Below are positions 562 to 8,074 of a stretch of DNA of 12,124 nt, piece after piece. The notes under the pieces were generated by a model. The model did not search any database, was not told where the DNA came from, and worked only from the letters and a program-made list of their open reading frames with translations. The stretch spans positions 1-12,124 of IMG/VR virus record IMGVR_UViG_2695420576_000002; one strand, 5' to 3'. Each line of letters begins with the position of its first letter. Position 1 is the first letter of the stretch. Both the position numbers and the translations under genes were made by a program. The stretch comes from a virus. Lineage: Duplodnaviria > Heunggongvirae > Uroviricota > Caudoviricetes.

Positions 562-2331
562 ATGAATGCTGCCCTGACTGAACGACTGGTTTATGTCGCC
601 CGCGCGGCACGTGACGCGGGGCATGGTAAACGCGGTGCAATATACGACGCTGCCTGTGCTGAACTTGGCATGTCCCGCGCCACTCTGCTGCGCAGGCTGA
701 AGGAGGTCTCTGTGACTGATAAACGCAAAAAACGCGCTGATGCCGGACGCAGCGCCCTGACCCGCGACGAAGCCGCGCTGATATCTGCCACACTGCGTGA
801 GGCCACCCGCAAGAACGGTAAGCGTCTCTATTCCATCGCGGATGCAGTGGAAACCCTGCGGGCTAACGGCTTTATCTCCGCAGGCAGAACAGATGAAACC
901 ACCGGTGAGTTTTTCCCGTTGTCCGAAGATGCCATCAGTCGTGCCCTGCGTAACTATGGCCTGCACCCGGAACAACTGGATGCTCCTGCGCCGCATACCG
1001 AAGTGGCCAGTCTGCATCCCAATCATGTCTGGCAGATTGATGCCTCGCTCTGCACGCTTTACTACCTGAGCAATGGACACAAAGGGCTGCAGGTGATGGA
1101 CAGCGCGAAGTTCTACAAGAACAAACCCGCTAACCTTGCCCGTATCGCCAGTGACCGCGTGTGGAGTTACGAGATTACCGACCATGCCAGCGGCTGGATT
1201 TACGTTGAGTATGTGACGGGTGCGGAATCCGGTGAGAACCTGTGTTCTGTGCTTATCAACGCCATGCAGGAGCGTGGCGGCGCAGACGTGCTGCACGGCG
1301 TGCCAAAAATACTCTATCTCGACCCCGGTTCGGCAAACACCGCGGGTATGACGAAAAACATGTGCCGCTCACTGGGCATTGACCTGATAGCGCACAAGCC
1401 GCATAACGCCCGCGCCACCGGACAGGTGGAAAAGGCGCGTGACATTATCGAACGCAAGCTGGAGCCGGGTCTGAAGTTCCGGCCGGTTCACAGTCTGGAA
1501 GAACTCAACGCGCTGGCCGCGAAATGGCGCAGCCACTTTAACGCCACGGCTGTTCACAGCCGCCACGGTAAAACCCGCACGGATATCTGGCTGAAGATTA
1601 CTGCTGAGCAGCTGAAAAAAGCGCCTTCCGTTGAGGTATGTCGTGAACTGGCTGTGGCGGCACCAGAACTCCGCAAAGTCACGCCAAAACTTCGTGTCTC
1701 GTTCCGGGGCACTGAATTTGACGTATCAACGGTACCGGGCGTACTGGTTGGTGAAAAACTGATGATTACCCGTAACCCATGGCGCAGCGATGTGGCACAG
1801 GTGGTTCTGACCGGTGAGGACGGCCACGAGACGTTCTTCCTGGTCGAAGAGGTCAGAAAGAACGAGTTTGGCTTTGCTGAAGGCGCGGCGGTATTTGGCG
1901 AAAGTTACAAAGCCCTGCCGGAAACCCCGGCACAGATGGCGGCAAAAGAAACCGAAGCGCTGGTTACCGGTACAGACAACGCCGCAGATGCAGCCGCCGC
2001 ACGCAAGGCGAAGGCGCTGCCGTTCGGCGGGCGGCTTGACCCGTATAAACATATCGACGACACCACACTTCCGGCCTATATGCCGAAGCGTGGTCAGGCC
2101 TCTGACGTACGCGGGCCGCGCACTGAACAACGTCCCATGACTCATGTGGAGGCCGCGAAAGCCCTGCGCGATAAGTTCAGCGCCGACGGCCTTACCTGGA
2201 CGCCGGAACATTACCGCCAGTTAACGGCACAGTACCCGGACGGCGTACCGGAAGCCGCACTGGATGAAGTCATGGCCACGCTGACCACACCGGCCCGCAG
2301 CAGTGTTATCAGCATTGTTAACGGCAACTGA
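562..2331 (+). CDS. DDE transposase, Mu A-like (retroviral-integrase superfamily), 589 aa
   Basis: ATG at 562 with GGAGG 10 nt upstream. Candidate catalytic triad D160 (HVWQIDAS), D254 (LYLDPGS), E290 (TGQVEKA), giving the classic 35-36 residue D-to-E spacing. N-terminal region looks HTH-like. Shorter than MuA (663 aa) and unlike the MuA sequence as recalled. Confidence 0.85.
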   Translation: MNAALTERLVYVARAARDAGHGKRGAIYDAACAELGMSRATLLRRLKEVSVTDKRKKRADAGRSALTRDEAALISATLREATRKNGKRLYSIADAVETLRANGFISAGRTDETTGEFFPLSEDAISRALRNYGLHPEQLDAPAPHTEVASLHPNHVWQIDASLCTLYYLSNGHKGLQVMDSAKFYKNKPANLARIASDRVWSYEITDHASGWIYVEYVTGAESGENLCSVLINAMQERGGADVLHGVPKILYLDPGSANTAGMTKNMCRSLGIDLIAHKPHNARATGQVEKARDIIERKLEPGLKFRPVHSLEELNALAAKWRSHFNATAVHSRHGKTRTDIWLKITAEQLKKAPSVEVCRELAVAAPELRKVTPKLRVSFRGTEFDVSTVPGVLVGEKLMITRNPWRSDVAQVVLTGEDGHETFFLVEEVRKNEFGFAEGAAVFGESYKALPETPAQMAAKETEALVTGTDNAADAAAARKAKALPFGGRLDPYKHIDDTTLPAYMPKRGQASDVRGPRTEQRPMTHVEAAKALRDKFSADGLTWTPEHYRQLTAQYPDGVPEAALDEVMATLTTPARSSVISIVNGN

Positions 2332-2341
2332 GGAGGGAAAC

Positions 2342-3508
2342 ATGCTGGTACTGAAGCAGCAACTGAAAGAGGCCCGTATTCCACAGGCGGTGGTGGCGAG
2401 AGCTGTCGATGTTTCTGAGGCCACGCTGGCCCAGATTGTGAATCATAACGCGTGGCCCCGCACCAGCCCCGGAGAAGTGCGCCGGCGTCTTGCGTCCTGG
2501 CTGGAAAGTCAGGGGATTGATACAACGAAGAGTTTTGATGCTGTACAGGGCGCGGCCACGCCCCGTACAGCGGGTACCACAGATAAAACGAGCCTCAGTG
2601 AGGAAGAGAATATGTTACTCAAAAAACAGGTGTTATTTCCAGCAACCAAAAAAGCGTTTGGTCTTTTCCGTGACCCGTTCGCCGACGAAGCCATGCAGGG
2701 TTCTGATGATGTGTTCACCACCCCGGATATTCGCTACGTGCGTGAGGCGTTGTACCAGACAGCCCGTCATGGTGGGTTTATGGCCGTCATCGGTGAGTCC
2801 GGTGCGGGTAAATCCACGCTGCGCCGCGACCTGACTGAACGTATCAACCGCGAGAATGCGCCGGTAATTGTTATCGAGCCATACATCATCGCTATGGAAG
2901 ACAACGATGTGAAAGGGAAAACCCTGAAGGCAGCAGCGATTGCCGAAGCCATTATCAGTACCATCGCACCACTGGAAAGCATCAGACGCAGTCAGGACGC
3001 CCGCTTTCGCCAGTTGCATCGCGTCCTGAAAGACAGCAGCCAGGCGGGGTTCAGCCACGTTCTGGTGATTGAGGAGGCCCACAGTCTGCCCATTCCGACA
3101 CTGAAACACCTCAAACGCTTTTTTGAGCTGGAGTCCGGTTTCAAAAAACTGCTGTCCATCGTGCTGATTGGCCAGCCGGAACTGGCGACAAAACTGTCTG
3201 AACGCAATATGGAAGTCCGTGAAGTCGTTCAGCGCTGTGAGGTGGTCGAACTTCTGCCTCTGGACAATAACCTTGAAGAGTTTCTGACGTTCAAACTGCA
3301 ACGGGCCGGTAAACAACTGACGGACATTATGGACGCCAGCGCAGTGGATGCCATACGTGCCCGCCTGAGCAATCCGGGAAGTCATCGTAAAAATATGGTC
3401 AGCCTGCTGTATCCGCTGGCCGTCAGTAACCTGGTAATAGCCGCCATGAATCTGGCCGCTGAAATCGGGGTTCCACAGGTCAACGCTGACGTTGTCAAAG
3501 GGGTTTAA
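2342..3508 (+). CDS. transposition target-DNA activator ATPase, Mu B-like AAA+ protein, 388 aa
   Basis: Start chosen at ATG 2342 (AGGAGGG at 2331-2337) rather than the ORF-track start at 2303. Walker A GESGAGKST and Walker B-like VLVIEEAH. N-terminal HTH-like segment. Sits directly after the transposase, as B does in Mu. Confidence 0.8.
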   Translation: MLVLKQQLKEARIPQAVVARAVDVSEATLAQIVNHNAWPRTSPGEVRRRLASWLESQGIDTTKSFDAVQGAATPRTAGTTDKTSLSEEENMLLKKQVLFPATKKAFGLFRDPFADEAMQGSDDVFTTPDIRYVREALYQTARHGGFMAVIGESGAGKSTLRRDLTERINRENAPVIVIEPYIIAMEDNDVKGKTLKAAAIAEAIISTIAPLESIRRSQDARFRQLHRVLKDSSQAGFSHVLVIEEAHSLPIPTLKHLKRFFELESGFKKLLSIVLIGQPELATKLSERNMEVREVVQRCEVVELLPLDNNLEEFLTFKLQRAGKQLTDIMDASAVDAIRARLSNPGSHRKNMVSLLYPLAVSNLVIAAMNLAAEIGVPQVNADVVKGV

Positions 3509-3510
3509 TA

Positions 3511-3780
3511 ATGAAATCCACCACAGGTATCAACCAGCAAATCAGCAAAGTGCAGTCAGCCATTATGGCGCTTAAGGCGACGAACACGGATGTACAAAGC
3601 ATCACCATCAGGGGTAACAAACCTGTCATCCGCGTTTCCCGGAGTGCGCATTGCATGCGCATGCTTGAGCAGGGAAAGGCCTGTTATCTGTATACCGGTC
3701 ATGACCACAGGGGACATTTCCGTCAGGGCGTTTTCGAACTGCACGGCTGTCGCGTCGTGTGGCCGGAATCTTTGTGGTAA
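3511..3780 (+). CDS. hypothetical small protein (89 aa)
   Basis: ORF starts 3 bp after the B stop, same strand, within the operon. No recognisable motifs. Confidence 0.45.
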   Translation: MKSTTGINQQISKVQSAIMALKATNTDVQSITIRGNKPVIRVSRSAHCMRMLEQGKACYLYTGHDHRGHFRQGVFELHGCRVVWPESLW

Positions 3781-3807
3781 TCAGCACAACAGGAGGAGTC
3801 ATAAAAT

Positions 3808-4338
3808 ATGGCAAAAAGTACAAAAGGGGCAAAACGTATCAAAGCCGCAGCAGCACTCTGGGTGCCGGGGACACGCGAAGAGGTCATTGAGGGAATCAGA
3901 CTGCTTGGTGACGCGCAACGTGAACTGGTCAGGGCTGAAACAGAAATGAATGACACCATTGGCGACATCACTGCACGTTATGCCCCGCTCACCGAGAGCC
4001 TGAAAAAACGCATGGCCGAACTGCAGTCCGGTATCCAGACATGGTGTGAGGCGCACCGTGATGAACTGACCGGCAACGGGAAGGTGAAGTTCGCTAACCT
4101 CACCACCGGCGAGGTGCAGTGGCGAAACCGTCCGCCGTCAGTCAGCATTCGCGGGGCGGATAATGTCATTGAACTGCTGAGACGTCTGGGGCTTGAGCGC
4201 TTTATTCGTGTAAAGGAGGAAATAAATAAAGATGCCATTCTGAATGAAAAAGAGGCTGTGAAAAATATTCCCGGTATTACCATAAAAAGTGATATTGAGG
4301 ATTTTTCAATAATTCCTTTTGAGCAGGATGTGCAGTAA
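3808..4338 (+). CDS. gam: Gam-like host-nuclease inhibitor / DNA-end-binding protein
   Basis: 176 aa. AGGAGG at 3791-3796. The translation closely resembles Mu Gam as recalled, including the C-terminal IEDFSIIPFEQ segment and internal segments such as ETEMND, RPPSVSIRG and RFIR.KEEINK. Confidence 0.85.
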   Translation: MAKSTKGAKRIKAAAALWVPGTREEVIEGIRLLGDAQRELVRAETEMNDTIGDITARYAPLTESLKKRMAELQSGIQTWCEAHRDELTGNGKVKFANLTTGEVQWRNRPPSVSIRGADNVIELLRRLGLERFIRVKEEINKDAILNEKEAVKNIPGITIKSDIEDFSIIPFEQDVQ

Positions 4339-4380
4339 ACACACCACGTTAATTATTTAATAAAAACATTTTCTTTTTTA

Positions 4381-4417
4381 TTCCGGCGTCAGCGCCGCGG
4401 GCTTCTGCACGCCGGAA
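4381..4417. repeat. perfect 9-bp inverted repeat TTCCGGCGT / ACGCCGGAA around a 19-nt GC-rich spacer
   Basis: Read directly from the gam to zinc-ribbon intergenic region. Preceded by a T-rich stretch, followed by the RBS and ATG at 4436. No U-tract after the stem, so it is not a classic intrinsic terminator. Confidence 0.6.
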
Positions 4418-4435
4418 ACAGAGGAGAATTAAATT

Positions 4436-4630
4436 ATGATATTTAAATGTATTCAGTGCGAGAGGGATATAACAGCCCTGCGTTTTCACAGCGCCATCGC
4501 CGTGATGTCCGGTAAGTATCACATACCTGCAGTACGTGTCACCCTGGTCTGCCCGTACTGCAGCCAGCATTTTTCGGCGGACGTGCCCGTCATGGAATTC
4601 TCCCGCCCTGACAGGGAGGACGCGCAATGA
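4436..4630 (+). CDS. zinc-ribbon protein (CxxC...CxxC), 64 aa; possibly an Ogr/Delta-like or Com-like regulator
   Basis: C5/C8 and C39/C42 pairs. N-terminus MIFKCIQC resembles the Ogr/Delta start MFHCPLC as recalled. RBS AGGAG lies upstream of the ATG at 4436. Confidence 0.5.
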   Translation: MIFKCIQCERDITALRFHSAIAVMSGKYHIPAVRVTLVCPYCSQHFSADVPVMEFSRPDREDAQ

Positions 4631-4899
4631 TTACCCCACAGGAAGCACGACAGCGCACCCGAACTCTTGTTGAACACTATGTCAACGAGTGTGAATGCCG
4701 CGACCTCACCGATGTGAAGCACGTCCTGACGGCGCTAATCAGCATGGCCACACAGGCCATTGTGGCGACCAACGGAAAGGAGGCTGCCCTGCAGGTACTG
4801 ATGAACACACTCACCCACACGGCAGAGCATGAGGTGCCGTACCGGATGGAAACCACTGCAGAAGGCGGCCTGCACATCACCGTCAGCCGGAAGCACTGA
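4627..4899 (+). CDS. hypothetical protein (90 aa)
   Basis: ATGA start/stop overlap with the upstream ORF at 4627-4630, suggesting translational coupling. RBS AGGGAGGA upstream. No family recognised. Confidence 0.45.
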   Translation: MITPQEARQRTRTLVEHYVNECECRDLTDVKHVLTALISMATQAIVATNGKEAALQVLMNTLTHTAEHEVPYRMETTAEGGLHITVSRKH

Positions 4900-4908
4900 G
4901 GGCGCGGC

Positions 4909-5205
4909 ATGACACGAAACACCGAACTCACCCGCACCGCCCTCTACCGTCTGGCCCTGCAGCGTTTCGGGCCGGACGCACAGGCCCTGAAACTGGCAGA
5001 AGAGGCCGCTGAACTGGCGGCCAGTGCCGCCCGCAACCTGAACGGACAGGGCAGCGAAAGTGACCTCGCGGCAGAGCTGGCAGACGTGGAAATCATGACA
5101 GAGCAACTGCGCCTTCAGGGGATGGACCGGCTGATTGACTTCCACAAACAGAAAAAACTGGAACGTCTGGCTGCACGACTGGGCGTGATTTACACGAACG
5201 AGTAA
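4909..5205 (+). CDS. MazG-like nucleotide pyrophosphohydrolase family protein (tentative), 98 aa
   Basis: About 100 aa and helical. Acidic motifs LAEEAAELA and ELADVEIM are spaced like the EExxE and ExxD metal-binding motifs of small MazG-type NTP pyrophosphatases. Assigned from motifs only. Confidence 0.45.
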   Translation: MTRNTELTRTALYRLALQRFGPDAQALKLAEEAAELAASAARNLNGQGSESDLAAELADVEIMTEQLRLQGMDRLIDFHKQKKLERLAARLGVIYTNE

Positions 5206-5219
5206 CCGGGAGGCATTCA

Positions 5220-5435
5220 ATGGCTGACATACTCAGGGAAATCACCGCATGGACACTGATTCTTACTGGCCTGGCGACATGCCTCAGTGCGGGGGCAGCC
5301 CTGGCTGCCCTGCTGATGCACATAACAACACAGTGGTTATGGGAAAAGCTTAAAGCAGCATACAGCCTGAAAGAGCTGTCCGACGCTGTCCGGGCATGGA
5401 AACGGCAGAAAAATACCGGAGATACAGAACAATGA
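5220..5435 (+). CDS. small membrane protein (71 aa, one predicted transmembrane helix)
   Basis: Hydrophobic segment WTLILTGLATCLSAGAALAALLM followed by a charged C-terminus. RBS GGGAGG upstream. Confidence 0.4.
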   Translation: MADILREITAWTLILTGLATCLSAGAALAALLMHITTQWLWEKLKAAYSLKELSDAVRAWKRQKNTGDTEQ

Positions 5436-6115
5436 CAGACCAGAATAAACACATTGAGAAACTGAAAAAGTTGCTGGCGCTGGCCGCATCCGGCAACCCG
5501 CACGAGGCCGCTCTGGCACTGCGCCGAGCCCGTAAACTGATGGATGTTCACGGCATCACACATTCCGACATTGCTATGAGTGATATTGATGAAACCATCA
5601 GTCACTACTGGCCGACAGGCAGTCTCCGTCCACCGCGCTACATGCTGGGCCTGATGAACATCATCCGCGAGGTATTTGGTGTTAACTCCATCATTCACCC
5701 CGGCACGCATCCGTCTGTGGGGTTCTACGGCAACCGGGAACGTGCGGCACTGGCTGCATACACCTGGGAAGTGCTGGCCCGTCAGCTGAAAAAGGCGCGT
5801 CAGCAGTATATCAGTGCACAGAACAAAAGAATAAAAACCGCCACCCGCACCAGCCGTGGAGACCAGTTTGCCGAAGGCTGGGTGCTGGCCGTTATCAGTG
5901 AAATACAGTCCTTTGCCCTGACCGATGATGAGCGTGAACTGATGCAGCAGTGGCTGGAACATAAATACCCGCAGACGCAAACCACCAGGGCGCGTAAACC
6001 GGGAAGAAGCCGCAATGGCGACGCCTCGCGCTATGCGGGGTTTCGTGAAGGGCAGAACGTCAGACTGCACCGCCCGGTCAGTGGGCAGGAACAACAGAAA
6101 CTGGAGGCCAGATGA
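5432..6115 (+). CDS. DUF2786-like phage protein, 227 aa
   Basis: Start chosen at ATG 5432 (ATGA overlap with the preceding stop, GGAGA upstream) rather than 5396. N-terminal IEKLKKLLALAASGNPHEAALALRRARKLM matches the conserved N-terminal signature of the DUF2786 family as recalled. Confidence 0.55.
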   Translation: MTDQNKHIEKLKKLLALAASGNPHEAALALRRARKLMDVHGITHSDIAMSDIDETISHYWPTGSLRPPRYMLGLMNIIREVFGVNSIIHPGTHPSVGFYGNRERAALAAYTWEVLARQLKKARQQYISAQNKRIKTATRTSRGDQFAEGWVLAVISEIQSFALTDDERELMQQWLEHKYPQTQTTRARKPGRSRNGDASRYAGFREGQNVRLHRPVSGQEQQKLEAR

Positions 6116-6342
6116 TTACGCTATCAGGTAAAAGCCGGAAATTAAAAGCCTGCCGAATATCTGCCAGATACCTTTTTGCCCGCGCCTTTTTTAAGAACGT
6201 CAGGCCGGGGATCACAATTGGTGTTATTGCCGGACGCGAACAGGTTGAAAAATACATGTCAGGTGCATGGTGGAATAACGACCCTGTCATTGCTGCCCGT
6301 AATATTCATATCGAATGGGGAGGTATTCAGAATGACTACTGA
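6112..6342 (+). CDS. hypothetical small basic protein (76 aa)
   Basis: ATGA overlap with the upstream stop and GGAGG at 6103-6107. However the 5' half is AT-rich and contains a palindrome and T-runs, so part may be regulatory rather than coding. Confidence 0.3.
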   Translation: MITLSGKSRKLKACRISARYLFARAFFKNVRPGITIGVIAGREQVEKYMSGAWWNNDPVIAARNIHIEWGGIQNDY

Positions 6343-6538
6343 AACCATTGTCTGTTTTCTTTTCTGGTATATGTACGCAGGATCATGCAGCGCAAGACTT
6401 CATCGTTCCCTGGGCTATGGCAGGCACTACGACACCGCGCATTACATCCTGTACATGACCGCCGTCATGTTGTTCTGGCCAGTCACCCTGCCAGCTGCAA
6501 CCGACATTGTTGCCGACAGACTGAAAAAAAGGAGATGA
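6331..6538 (+). CDS. small membrane protein (69 aa, two hydrophobic segments)
   Basis: ATG at 6331 with GGGGAGG at 6316-6322. Hydrophobic stretches IVCFLFWYMYAG and ILYMTAVMLFWPVTL. Confidence 0.4.
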
Positions 6539-6539
6539 T

Positions 6540-6989
6540 ATGCAGAAAAAACGCCTGATACAGCTTATCCATATTGCCCGTAATGAACTGGGTATGGATG
6601 AAGACACCTACCGCCAGATGTTACAGGGGCTGACCGGTAAAGCCTCAACCAAAGGAATGGATACCACACAACTAAACTGCGTGCTGGAATCCATGAAAAA
6701 GAAAGGCTTTCGCGTTAAACCAGCCAGAAAAGCCAGCTCCGGTTTACCGCTTGATAACCATCCGCAGTCCAGGAAAATTCGTGCGCTATGGCTTGAAATG
6801 GCTGCTGCCGGCATTGTTCGTGACCGTTCAGAAAATGCATTAGCGAGGTGGATCAAGCGGGAAACGGGCATCAGCGCCCTGCGCTGGCTCAGTACTGAAC
6901 AGGCAAGCAGTGTTATTGAGAAACTGAAGAAGTGGCAGCGCAGAGCTGCGGGAGTCAAACATGAGCGACCTGAATCAGTTTCGAAGTAA
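6540..6989 (+). CDS. gemA: GemA/gp16-like regulatory protein (DUF1018 family)
   Basis: 149 aa. The translation matches the gp16 family pattern as recalled (LIQLIHIA...L.GLTGK.S...M...QL..VLE.MK..GF). GGAG upstream of ATG 6540. Sits immediately before the mor-like gene, as in Mu. Confidence 0.7.
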   Translation: MQKKRLIQLIHIARNELGMDEDTYRQMLQGLTGKASTKGMDTTQLNCVLESMKKKGFRVKPARKASSGLPLDNHPQSRKIRALWLEMAAAGIVRDRSENALARWIKRETGISALRWLSTEQASSVIEKLKKWQRRAAGVKHERPESVSK

Positions 6990-7350
6990 GGGGCCGGAAC
7001 TCCTGGTGGAACTGGCACAGCATACCTCTGAGACCGTTCGCGAGATTATTGATATTGAGCCCGAAGTTGCCGACCAGATTGGTCAGGCCGTCGCGAACCG
7101 AATGATGCAGGTCTGGGGCGGGCAAAACGTTTATTTCCCGATGGGCATGGTATGGAAGGTCAGTCAGCGCGACCGGGAAATCTTCAGGGAGTTTAACGGA
7201 CGCAACCACCACGAACTGGCCCGCAAATTTGGTGTTTCGCTTCAGTGGGTCTACAGCGTGGTTAAGCGGGTAAGAAAAGAAGAACTGGATCGGATGCAGG
7301 GCAAGCTATTTGCTGATGAACCCGATGCAGATACGGAGAAAAAAGAGTAA
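6961..7350 (+). CDS. mor: Mor-like middle-operon transcriptional activator
   Basis: 129 aa, the same length as Mu Mor. C-terminal HTH region FNGRNHHELARKFGVSLQWVYSVVKR resembles the Mor/C family. Last gene of the early operon. Overlaps the gemA 3' end by 29 bp. Confidence 0.8.
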   Translation: MSDLNQFRSKGPELLVELAQHTSETVREIIDIEPEVADQIGQAVANRMMQVWGGQNVYFPMGMVWKVSQRDREIFREFNGRNHHELARKFGVSLQWVYSVVKRVRKEELDRMQGKLFADEPDADTEKKE

Positions 7351-7511
<161 letters not shown>

Positions 7512-7673
7512 CAAATACGGCAATCCCGACGATGGGGATCAGCGCCAGCACGGTAGCAACGGCCTGTACGCGGGTGATCATTTTCGGACCGACAATGTTC
7601 AGCAGGACGAAGATCCACAGCACCACGACGCAGGTGATGGTTAATACCAATGGATCTTTCAGAATCGGGAAGA

Positions 7674-7734
7674 AGTAACTTAAATATCTAACTTAAATAT
7701 CCTACGCCAAAGTAACTTAAATATCCTACGCCAA
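7674..7734. repeat. nested direct duplication within adiC: 22-bp unit TAACTTAAATATCCTACGCCAA at 7689-7710 and 7713-7734, plus a 13-bp partial copy at 7676-7688 (net +37 bp)
   Basis: Read directly from the sequence. Relative to the expected single copy encoding IGVGYLSYF, the extra 37 bp shifts the frame and creates a TAG stop (translation ...[15 protein letters not shown]). Confidence 0.8.
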
Positions 7735-7735
7735 T

Positions 7736-7777
7736 GACCACCATGGCGATATTGCCGACCACCATGGCGATATTGCC
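7736..7777. repeat. perfect 21-bp tandem duplication GACCACCATGGCGATATTGCC x2 within adiC (in-frame repeat of GNIAMVV)
   Basis: Read directly from the sequence. The - strand translation shows [13 protein letters not shown] where native AdiC, as recalled, has a single NIAMVV. Confidence 0.85.
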
Positions 7778-8074
7778 GATCCAGCAGGCCAGCCAGTAGA
7801 GGACGTTGGTTTGATAACCGAGAAACGGGCCAAAGCAGCGGCGGGCGTAAGCGTAAGAACCACCAGGACTTGGGTCGAGGAACGACATTTTGGCGTATAC
7901 CATCGAGAGCCCCAGCGCACCGATAATCGTCACCAACCATCCATAAATAGCAATCCCGCCAGTGGAGGCCAGGTTTGCAGGTAACAGAAAAACACCTGAC
8001 CCCATAATATTCCCCGACACCATCAGGGTGACGGGGATTAAGCCCACTTTGTGAGCATCAGCATCCGAAGACAT

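What the first reader, a model, noticed from the sequence alone, without database searches (positions are those of the whole stretch)
4381..4630. Perfect inverted repeat immediately upstream of a small zinc-ribbon gene
A 9-bp perfect inverted repeat with a 19-nt GC-rich spacer containing a CCGCGG palindrome lies between gam and the zinc-ribbon ORF, about 20 bp before its RBS. It lacks a trailing U-tract, so it is more likely an operator, an RNA processing or attenuation structure, or a partial internal terminator that sets expression of the downstream accessory genes. The zinc-ribbon protein resembles small phage transcription or translation activators of the Ogr/Delta or Com type.
Basis: partly seen in the sequence, partly recalled or inferred. 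Interest (0 to 1): 0.4.

Follow-up and report, generated by a model that had tools for sequence, protein, structure and literature searches.

The report
Conserved hairpin cassette in Mu-like phages
The inverted repeat is real and is one copy of a conserved, apparently undescribed "AT-rich leader, GC-rich hairpin, ribosome-binding site" cassette that sits between early genes of Mu-like phages (phage Mu included) and marks where accessory genes get swapped; it is not a control site for the neighbouring zinc-ribbon protein.

Summary
The 9-bp perfect inverted repeat (4381-4389 / 4409-4417, 19-nt spacer, CCGCGG inside, no U-tract) is there. It ends 3 nt before the Shine-Dalgarno sequence, not about 20 bp. 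A repeat of this size is not beyond chance. Conservation shows it is real: the 37-nt core is nearly invariant in 148 related loci, while the downstream zinc-ribbon protein falls to about 31% identity and the upstream gene is replaced. One arm pair covaries (C-G to U-A).

The window is the early operon of a BcepMu-like transposable prophage inserted in adiC. Phage Mu, D108, SfMu and over 100 viral contigs carry a colinear cassette in the same early-operon context, with an invariant GGCG/CGCC stem base, covarying inner pairs, and homologous flanks in Mu and D108. Some phages carry two or three copies, each before a different small gene. Recombination breakpoints fall inside or at the edge of the cassettes.

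The best reading is an intercistronic mRNA stem-loop and portable translation-start cassette. In this E. coli lineage it also masks the SD through an upstream U-tract, and it serves as a crossover linker, like T4 PeSL elements but without a promoter or terminator.

The zinc-ribbon protein matches neither Ogr/Delta nor Com. Mechanism is inferred; conservation, structure and mosaic junctions are shown.

The parts
3808..4338 (+). gam (host-nuclease inhibitor), the last core early gene before the cassette
   Evidence: Pfam Phage_Mu_Gam 1.1e-40; phrog_491 2e-73
4339..4435 (+). Whole intercistronic cassette (leader, hairpin, linker, SD). It is the only large gap in the early operon 562-7350.
   Evidence: ORF list and RefSeq annotation of an identical prophage. 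91% identical over 55 nt to the Klebsiella phage KP12 cassette although the left flank gives no hit and the right flank only a 33-nt patch.
4355..4361 (+). ATTTAAT motif of the AT-rich leader
   Evidence: By eye, present in the window group, the KP12 group and Mu/D108 leaders
4369..4379 (+). Pyrimidine tract TTTTCTTTTTT. Bases 4371-4379 pair with the SD region 4420-4428.
   Evidence: MFE and centroid structure. Mean pair probability 0.78 at 37 C. P(SD unpaired) is 0.003 native, against 0.32 with the left flank shuffled and 0.59 after 5' truncation at the hairpin. The tract is conserved in the W-type family (pi 0.069 against 0.13-0.19 in flanks).
4381..4389 (+). Left arm of the inverted repeat (basal stem; contains the family-invariant GGCG at 4385-4388)
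   Evidence: GGCG/CGCC invariant in 24 of 24 representatives across all types. Arm position 3 covaries C-G to U-A between phage groups.
4390..4408 (+). Apical part: CAG/CUG (4390-4392 with 4405-4407) and GCC/GGC (4394-4396 with 4400-4402), GCG loop, bulges C4393, UU4403-4404, C4408. CCGCGG at 4395-4400 is incidental.
   Evidence: Fold. The common polymorphisms fall on unpaired positions or give G-U (my reading of the haplotypes).
4409..4417 (+). Right arm of the inverted repeat (contains the invariant CGCC at 4410-4413)
4416..4421 (+). AAACAG linker
   Evidence: Shared by the window group, the KP12 group and Mu/D108
4421..4426 (+). Shine-Dalgarno GAGGAG of the zinc-ribbon gene, predicted to be masked
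4436..4630 (+). 64-aa zinc-ribbon gene (CxxC-x30-CPxC), the first accessory gene after the cassette; function unknown
   Evidence: phrog_3401, unknown function, 1e-40. No Ogr/Delta or Com hit. AF2 pLDDT 85, three-stranded zinc ribbon. Best PDB match is the NrdR zinc ribbon at E 0.06. Only 14 clusters among 1.8 billion representatives.

Best explanation
The repeat is the stem of a conserved intercistronic RNA hairpin. It belongs to a family of cassettes in the early polycistronic operon of Mu-like transposable phages. Each cassette runs from the stop codon of one gene to the ATG of the next. It consists of an AT-rich leader, a GC-rich extended hairpin with an invariant GGCG/CGCC base and a small G-rich apical stem-loop, an A-rich linker and the SD.

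Proposed mechanism (inferred): the hairpin forms in the early mRNA. It starts 42 nt after the gam stop codon, out of reach of terminating ribosomes. It would act as a stable structural barrier at the border between the core early genes (transposition genes and gam) and the variable accessory genes, and it would define a standard translation-start context for whatever gene follows.

In this E. coli lineage the U-tract just 5' of the hairpin also pairs with the SD, closed by the hairpin as a clamp. Translation of the zinc-ribbon gene would then be constitutively throttled, unless the AU-rich leader is cleaved, for example by RNase E. Cleavage would free the SD and leave a protective 5' hairpin.

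Shown: because the roughly 60-90 nt cassette is conserved among otherwise diverged phages, it is also where crossovers occur, so accessory genes are exchanged as cassettes.
For: Context: the window is a BcepMu-like prophage early operon. The gam-to-zinc-ribbon gap is the only large gap in that operon.

Conservation: the core is nearly invariant in 148 of 148 loci. Nucleotide diversity is 0.041, against 0.13-0.19 in the flanking coding and SD regions. Conservation is not explained by a minus-strand ORF.

Structure: z = -4.5. The W-type arms have one compensatory pair. In the Mu-type family two stem pairs covary cleanly (CG 12 / UA 9 and GC 6 / AU 5, none broken), with 92% of cells paired against 28-54% when the partner columns are slid. 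In the cross-type alignment GGCG/CGCC is invariant and pair 5 is UA 18 / CG 6. All types fold to the same architecture.

Same element in phage Mu and D108, directly after gam, with homologous flanks.

Arrays of two or three copies, each preceding a different gene.

Breakpoints inside the hairpin or at cassette edges.

SD masking in this lineage. It is predicted to be insensitive to temperature from 20 to 50 C.

Every cassette read or found here is followed, on the same strand, by an SD and a start codon.
Against: - No transcript data were available. RNA-level rather than DNA-level action is not proven, and the minus strand folds equally well.
- Single-sided substitutions are not clearly biased toward G-U on the + strand: about 7 G-U events against 5-6 A-C events in the W-type (my count on the 21 haplotypes). 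In the Mu-type alignment G-U appears in 6 cells.
- SD masking by the leader is not a general property of the family. Native against shuffled left flank gives 0.32 against 0.35 for Mu-type and 0.17 against 0.21 for W-type overall.
- Strong conservation of loop and stem sequence is more than a simple stability hairpin needs, and hints at an unidentified protein partner.
- The Mu-type covariance model does not score the window hairpin significantly (7.1 bits, E 1.4). The link between the types rests on colinear alignment, shared flanks and intermediates (L160 at 15.6 bits; T3 type).
- The outer GGCG/CGCC and the apical motif of the Mu-type set were imposed by the search pattern.
Confidence: 0.5

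Rival explanations
1. The primary selected role is at the DNA level. The cassette would be a recombination linker, by homologous patch or by a dedicated recombinase or structure-specific protein that recognises the GGCG...CGCC hairpin. It would mediate cassette-like gain, loss and replacement of early accessory genes, as PeSL or integron attC sites do, with any effect on RNA secondary.
For: Breakpoints lie inside the hairpin and at cassette edges in L195 against L212. The cassette is an island of 83-97% identity between unrelated flanks. Arrays flank single genes. At least 15 downstream and 24 upstream gene families adjoin such hairpins, by a loose hairpin finder whose hits were not all checked. 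Sequence-level conservation of the stem base and apical loop suggests protein recognition. PeSL is a precedent (PMC2839356).
Against: Crossovers at any conserved patch are expected without selection for recombination. No recombinase is associated with the cassettes. Most phages carry one copy only (about 3 of 100 loci have more). Constant orientation and a fixed position next to the SD fit an expression signal equally well.
Confidence: 0.25
2. Partial terminator or attenuator. The hairpin would pause or terminate a fraction of early transcripts after gam, lowering transcription of the accessory block.
For: A stable GC-rich hairpin (-21.7 kcal/mol core) lies at the core/accessory border. PeSL stem-loops without obvious U-tracts reduced lacZ read-through strongly (PMC2839356).
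Against: No U-tract follows the hairpin in any member read here; AAACAG or TGAA follows. The terminator scan finds nothing at this site. Mor lies downstream in the same operon, and by established knowledge of Mu it is needed for middle transcription, so strong termination would be costly.
Confidence: 0.12
3. Operator or translational operator bound by the adjacent zinc-ribbon protein (Com-like or Ogr-like autoregulation).
For: The strict W-type hairpin and a zinc-ribbon gene co-occur in 148 of 148 loci. The hairpin masks that gene's SD in this lineage. Sequence-level conservation suggests some protein partner.
Against: Family members precede many unrelated genes, and in Mu gene 11, not a zinc-ribbon gene, follows the hairpin. 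The L160 variant precedes a MazG-like gene. In L079 and L139 another ORF separates the hairpin from the zinc-ribbon gene. The hairpin stays invariant while the protein drops to 31% identity and becomes strongly acidic. There is no Com or Ogr/Delta profile match. Arm centres are 28 bp apart and a conserved spacer lies between them, which by general knowledge of dimer operators is atypical.
Confidence: 0.06
4. Chance inverted repeat with no function.
For: A 9-bp perfect inverted repeat is not rarer than expected in 12 kb.
Against: Conservation, covariation, family-wide recurrence and arrays.
Confidence: 0.01

Closest known systems
PeSL (promoter-early stem-loop) cassettes of T4-type phages (Arbiol et al. 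2010, PMC2839356; PMC4122927)
   Same: A conserved composite motif of about 60-100 bp fills the gap from a stop codon to the next ATG. It contains an AT-rich segment, a G/C-rich stem-loop and the SD. It is associated with small variable genes, occurs in arrays, and recombination junctions map within the motif, including the loop.
   Different: No sigma-70 promoter could be found (and my reading of the leaders). No terminator signature. It lies inside one long operon of temperate transposable phages. The stem is GGCG/CGCC rather than GGGG/CCCC. No minicircle evidence.
Intercistronic stabiliser hairpins in polycistronic mRNAs (for example REP in malE-malF; established knowledge, not tested here)
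   Same: A stable GC-rich hairpin without a U-tract lies more than 20 nt after a stop codon, at a boundary between genes that would be expected to differ in expression level.
   Different: Not a REP or BIME sequence, and no Rfam family matches. It is phage-specific, abuts the next SD, and its loop and base are conserved in sequence.
Mu com-mom translational control, and RBS-occluding leaders opened by processing (lambda N leader, adhE with RNase III; established knowledge)
   Same: In this lineage a helix sequesters the SD of the downstream gene next to a stable hairpin. A small zinc-binding protein gene lies nearby.
   Different: The zinc-ribbon protein is not a Com homologue. It is encoded downstream of the hairpin, not upstream. 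Masking is not conserved across the family. No processing site has been shown.
Integron attC sites
   Same: Imperfect palindromes at the junctions of promoterless gene cassettes that are expressed from an upstream promoter.
   Different: No integrase, no attC R/L box organisation, and the flanks are conserved as well, which points to homologous rather than site-specific exchange.

Membership tests
Intrinsic (Rho-independent) terminator | GC-rich hairpin | tested here: met
   Core -21.7 kcal/mol, z -3.3
Intrinsic (Rho-independent) terminator | U-tract immediately 3' of the stem | tested here: not met
   AACAGAGGAG follows. The terminator scan lists no site here. The same is true in all relatives read. 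The T-tract lies 5' of the hairpin.
Ogr/Delta zinc-finger late activators (Pfam PF04606) | Match of the zinc-ribbon protein to the family profile | tested here: not met
   Not listed by hmmscan against Pfam-A at E <= 10; none in NCBIfam
Mu Com translational activator (Pfam Com zinc-ribbon family) | Match of the zinc-ribbon protein to the family profile | tested here: not met
   Not listed by hmmscan against Pfam-A at E <= 10. The profile search of 1.8 billion representatives finds only 14 clusters, nearly all short proteins (one weak hit is a 2850-aa protein); that library carries no names or annotation.
Mu Com translational activator (Pfam Com zinc-ribbon family) | Binding to an RNA stem-loop that opens an occluded start site | not testable with these tools
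   Occlusion is predicted. Binding needs a gel-shift. Acidic family members argue against it.
T4-type PeSL cassette | Conserved intergenic composite motif with a stem-loop and SD, from stop codon to next ATG | tested here: met
T4-type PeSL cassette | Strong sigma-70-like early promoter within the motif | tested here: not met
   No promoter-like site at 4339-4435. By my reading, the Mu and KP12 leaders lack a usable -35/-10 pair.
T4-type PeSL cassette | Flanks variable small genes; recombination junctions fall within the motif | tested here: met
T4-type PeSL cassette | Terminator activity of the stem-loop; minicircle formation | not testable with these tools
   Needs reporter assays and inverse PCR
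Mu-like early-operon hairpin cassette (family defined here: W, M and T3 types) | GGCG...CGCC basal stem, covarying fifth pair, 29-30 nt from GGCG to CGCC, AT-rich leader, A-rich linker plus SD, in the early operon in the sense orientation | tested here: met
   The window sequence aligns colinearly with 23 representatives, and every invariant column is present. The Mu-type-only covariance model, however, gives 7.1 bits, which is not significant.
fourU-type RNA thermometer | U-run pairs with the SD | tested here: met
   4371-4379 pairs with 4420-4428
fourU-type RNA thermometer | The helix melts in the physiological temperature range | tested here: not met
   Predicted P(SD unpaired) is 0.001 at 20 C, 0.007 at 37 C and 0.03 at 50 C. 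This is a thermodynamic prediction only.
Lambda-type nut site (boxA + boxB) | boxA consensus YGCUCUU(U)A 5' of a short hairpin with a purine-rich loop | tested here: not met
   The window has UUUCUUUUUUAUU and a 37-nt extended hairpin. Only Haemophilus phage SuMu shows a boxA-like CGCTCTTTAA.

The most novel reading that the evidence does not exclude
Mu-like transposable phages, including the paradigm phage Mu, would carry a dedicated cassette system in their early operon. A sequence-conserved hairpin (GGCG...CGCC with a G-rich apical loop) would be recognised by a still unidentified phage or host protein. It would both control the mRNA processing and translation of each accessory gene and actively promote excision, insertion and replacement of those genes. 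That would be a promoterless analogue of T4 PeSLs or integron cassettes operating inside a single transcription unit.
Probability: 0.3. Interest if true: 0.7.

Novelty: new variant of a known kind. Interest (0 to 1): 0.55.

Why it matters
The semi-essential early region of Mu-like phages is where host-takeover and anti-defence genes accumulate. How that region stays expressible while its genes are constantly swapped is not explained.

A conserved leader-hairpin-RBS cassette offers a concrete, testable answer. It is present in Mu itself, in 621 of 5,426 complete E. coli genomes for this variant, and in at least 170 viral contigs.

It also gives a practical marker for delimiting accessory-gene cassettes in transposable prophages. 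And it provides a simple genetic handle in Mu: the 98-nt gap between gam and gene 11.

Tried and rejected
- Rfam 15, on the window and on five related loci at E <= 1: no family.
- Literature searches on Mu early-transcript terminators and BcepMu intergenic structures, the Mu semi-essential region, hairpins in transposable phages and the hairpin sequences themselves: nothing describing this element. The Mu genome paper (PMID 11922669) is not held, so an earlier mention there cannot be excluded.
- Minus-strand ORF 4349-4627 as the cause of conservation: not kept open in relatives.
- Sigma-70 promoter in the leader: none.
- CsrA site: the Mu-type loop has GGGGA, but the W-type loop has no GGA, so this was rejected by reading.
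- nut-like boxA: does not fit the window.
- RNA thermometer: no predicted melting.
- Strand assignment from G-U against A-C substitutions: inconclusive.
- One covariance model for all types: the Mu-type model does not reach the W-type. A joint model would have matched its own seeds, so it was not built.
- Zinc-ribbon function: profile search, structure prediction and fold search gave only a generic zinc ribbon.
- Ungapped anchored comparisons are upset by 1-nt indels in the T-tract, so they were replaced by blastn of the separate segments.
- A comparison of L217 with L227 was dropped because the upstream-ORF assignment was doubtful.

Full report
**Observation**

The window carries TTCCGGCGT at 4381-4389 and its exact complement ACGCCGGAA at 4409-4417, with 19 nt between them. 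CCGCGG lies at 4395-4400, and no T-run follows the repeat.

The repeat ends 3 nt before the Shine-Dalgarno GAGGAG (4421-4426) and 18 nt before the ATG of a 64-aa ORF (4436-4630).

A perfect 9-bp inverted repeat with a spacer of 3-30 nt is not statistically remarkable. The window has three distinct ones, against 1.5 +/- 1.6 in dinucleotide shuffles, and 24 of 200 shuffles have at least as many. As RNA, 4370-4440 folds to -28.4 kcal/mol (z = -4.5). The stem extends inward through CAG/CUG and GCC/GGC. Outward, the pyrimidine tract 4371-4379 pairs with AGAGGAGAA at 4420-4428, which contains the SD.

**Context**

The window holds the early operon of a BcepMu-like transposable prophage:
- DDE transposase (562-2331)
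- MuB-like AAA ATPase
- an 89-aa gene
- Gam (3808-4338)
- the zinc-ribbon ORF
- several small genes, including a MazG-like gene and a DUF2786/DUF7168 gene
- a GemA-like gene (6540-6989)
- Mor (6961-7350)

Region 3800-5200 is found at 90% identity or more in 621 of 5,426 complete E. coli genomes, and at 97% in Escherichia phage PhiKM. From about 7512 onward the window is E. coli core chromosome (adiC fragment, adiY, adiA, melR). The gap between gam and the zinc-ribbon gene (97 nt) is the only large intergenic gap in the operon.

**Conservation of the hairpin**

Loci were retrieved through the zinc-ribbon protein alone, so they are unbiased with respect to the hairpin. They came from 13 species (14 loci) of Enterobacterales genomes and 77 viral contigs. 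All carry the hairpin.

The 37-nt core has only 21 haplotypes. Counting also the loci found by a pattern scan, all 148 loci with a hairpin have a zinc-ribbon-like ORF downstream.

In the diverse group the nucleotide diversity of the core is 0.041. The corresponding values are 0.13-0.15 in the flanking coding DNA and 0.19 in the SD region.

The two main groups differ by a compensatory change in arm pair 3, C-G to U-A. The common spacer polymorphisms fall on unpaired positions or give G-U. Rare variants produce both G-U and A-C, roughly 7 against 5-6 events, so they do not indicate a strand (my reading).

CCGCGG is usually CCGTGG. A minus-strand ORF over the region is not kept open in relatives, so it cannot explain the conservation.

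**The hairpin is not tied to the zinc-ribbon gene**

- In L079, L080 and L139 an extra 61-aa ORF lies between the hairpin and the zinc-ribbon gene.
- In the Klebsiella phage KP12 group the upstream gene is a 203-aa protein unrelated to Gam.
- In Klebsiella phage Kp4866-3 a near variant of the hairpin precedes a MazG-like gene, with no zinc-ribbon gene.
- Segment-wise blastn against KP12 shows the cassette as an island of 83-97% identity. The left flank, the right flank or both give no hit, or only short residual patches, in the window, L017, L062, L103 and L160.

**The same element is in phage Mu**

Mu, D108, SfMu and Yersinia Mu-like phages also have a gap of about 98 nt after gam. It contains, in order:
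- ATTTAAT...CACATTCTTTTAATTA
- the hairpin TGGCGCGATGCGTCAGGGGATTGCTCGCGCC
- TGAAACAG
- an SD and the ATG

The flanks resemble those of the KP12 and window cassettes (70-78% by global alignment, against a 52-62% noise level for unrelated segments), while the stem sequence differs.

A pattern that left the inner stem free found this "M-type" hairpin in at least 120 viral contigs. It has 28 haplotypes, a minority of them chance matches in GC-rich coding DNA, and it lies before many different genes.

In the M-type alignment two stem pairs covary cleanly: CG 12 / UA 9 and GC 6 / AU 5, with none broken. Overall 92% of cells are paired, against 28-54% when the partner columns are slid.

A 24-sequence alignment of the W-type (window), an intermediate, the M-type and a third "T3" type is colinear in 56 columns. 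GGCG and CGCC are invariant, and pair 5 is UA 18 / CG 6. All types fold into the same extended hairpin.

Some caution is needed:
- A covariance model built from the M-type alone does not score the window hairpin significantly (7.1 bits).
- The intermediate L160 scores 15.6 bits.
- GGCG/CGCC and the apical motif of the M set were imposed by the search pattern.
- No Rfam family matches any of the types.

**Arrays and recombination**

L240 has two copies flanking a 134-aa gene. L195 has three copies about 460 nt apart, each preceding a different gene. L212 has two copies.

Comparison of L195 with L212 gives three results:
- The 200 nt to the left of the first hairpin are about 98% identical, up to GGCGTAAA. 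The sequences then diverge inside the hairpin.
- The first hairpin core of L212, together with about 16 nt of linker, equals the second copy of L195.
- The last copies are identical, with 200 identical nt on the right but only the roughly 34-nt leader on the left.

Mosaic junctions therefore coincide with the cassettes. A loose hairpin finder, whose hits were not all checked, counted at least 15 downstream and 24 upstream protein families next to such hairpins. Small zinc-ribbon-like proteins are one recurrent downstream type, also after M-type hairpins.

**Mechanism**

Shown: a conserved, structured, orientation-constant intercistronic element, recurring across the family, with crossovers at it.

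Inferred: it acts in the early mRNA. Three observations fit this:
- The hairpin starts 42 nt after the gam stop codon, beyond a terminating ribosome.
- It ends at the 5' edge of the next ribosome-binding site.
- No U-tract follows it.

This fits a decay or processing barrier and a standard translation-start context better than a terminator.

In the window's own lineage the SD is predicted to be fully masked. P(SD unpaired) is 0.003, rising to 0.32 when the left flank is shuffled and to 0.59 after truncation at the hairpin. The masking does not melt between 20 and 50 C.

This suggests either constitutively low translation of the zinc-ribbon gene, or activation by cleavage in the AU-rich leader. 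Masking is not general across the family. Conservation of the stem base and the loop sequence hints at an unknown protein partner.

**The zinc-ribbon protein**

- It has CxxC-x30-CPxC.
- Its only family match is phrog_3401, of unknown function.
- Neither Ogr/Delta nor Com is listed in Pfam at E <= 10, and NCBIfam gives nothing.
- The first search found 16 homologues, many of them frameshifted assemblies. The profile search found 14 clusters among 1.8 billion representatives.
- The AlphaFold model (pLDDT 85) is a three-stranded zinc ribbon. Its best PDB match is the zinc ribbon of NrdR at E 0.06, which is not significant.
- Divergent members are strongly acidic, which argues against nucleic-acid binding.

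**Comparison with known systems**

The closest concept is the PeSL cassette of T4-type phages. PeSL is a composite motif that runs from a stop codon to the next ATG. It has an AT-rich segment, a stem-loop and an SD, flanks variable genes, and has crossovers in the motif (PMC2839356).

The element here differs from PeSL in several ways:
- It has no promoter.
- It has no terminator signature.
- It lies within one operon of temperate transposable phages.
- Its stem is different.

No description of it was found in the searchable literature. The Mu genome paper could not be read.

**Verdict**

The repeat is real. It is a new variant of a known kind of element: a mobile intercistronic regulatory cassette. 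Interest is moderate to good, because phage Mu itself carries it and its function can be tested directly.

Noticed in passing
window 7350-8074 (junction at about 7511/7512): Homology to the E. coli core chromosome starts at about 7512, roughly 160 nt after Mor. A 128-aa amino-acid-permease fragment (adiC) is followed by adiY, adiA and melR. The transposable prophage therefore appears to be inserted in adiC, the arginine/agmatine antiporter of acid resistance. In strain E94 the same prophage lies next to an SDR pseudogene and gcvP.
   Followed up: partly
window 4527-4536 / 4554-4563: A 10-bp perfect inverted repeat (CTGCAGTACG / CGTACTGCAG) lies inside the zinc-ribbon coding sequence. It has a mismatch in PhiKM and is absent in KP12, so it is probably chance.
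   Followed up: partly
window 4349-4627 (- strand); L002 3550-3771: The GenBank record of phage PhiKM annotates an antisense ORF here instead of the zinc-ribbon gene. That ORF is not kept open in relatives, so it is probably a mis-call.
   Followed up: yes
L150 1500-1560 (Haemophilus phage SuMu, downstream of gam): CGCTCTTTAAATC, which resembles a boxA, is followed 12 nt later by the hairpin CCCCCTCTTTGTCAAAGAGGGGG just before the next gene. This looks like a nut-site arrangement and was not examined further.
   Followed up: no
L175, L188, L217 (downstream of M-type hairpins); L103, L106, L017: Distant, partly very acidic zinc-ribbon proteins of 58-64 aa (MxxxC/LxxxCPxC ... CxxC ... NxF) recur as the first gene after hairpins of different types. 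This is a small accessory family of unknown function, typical of this position.
   Followed up: partly
window 4909-5205: The 98-aa product matches only the C-terminal half (113-211 of 218) of the PHROGs NTP-pyrophosphohydrolase (MazG-like) profile, so it may be a short or truncated form. In Kp4866-3 a 162-aa MazG-like gene follows the hairpin directly.
   Followed up: no
L001 6712-6981 (= window 3511-3780 by offset): RefSeq flags this 89-aa gene as a pseudogene with an internal stop in strain E94, while the window has an intact ORF (phrog_2041, 1e-36). Identity between the two sequences over this stretch was not checked.
   Followed up: no
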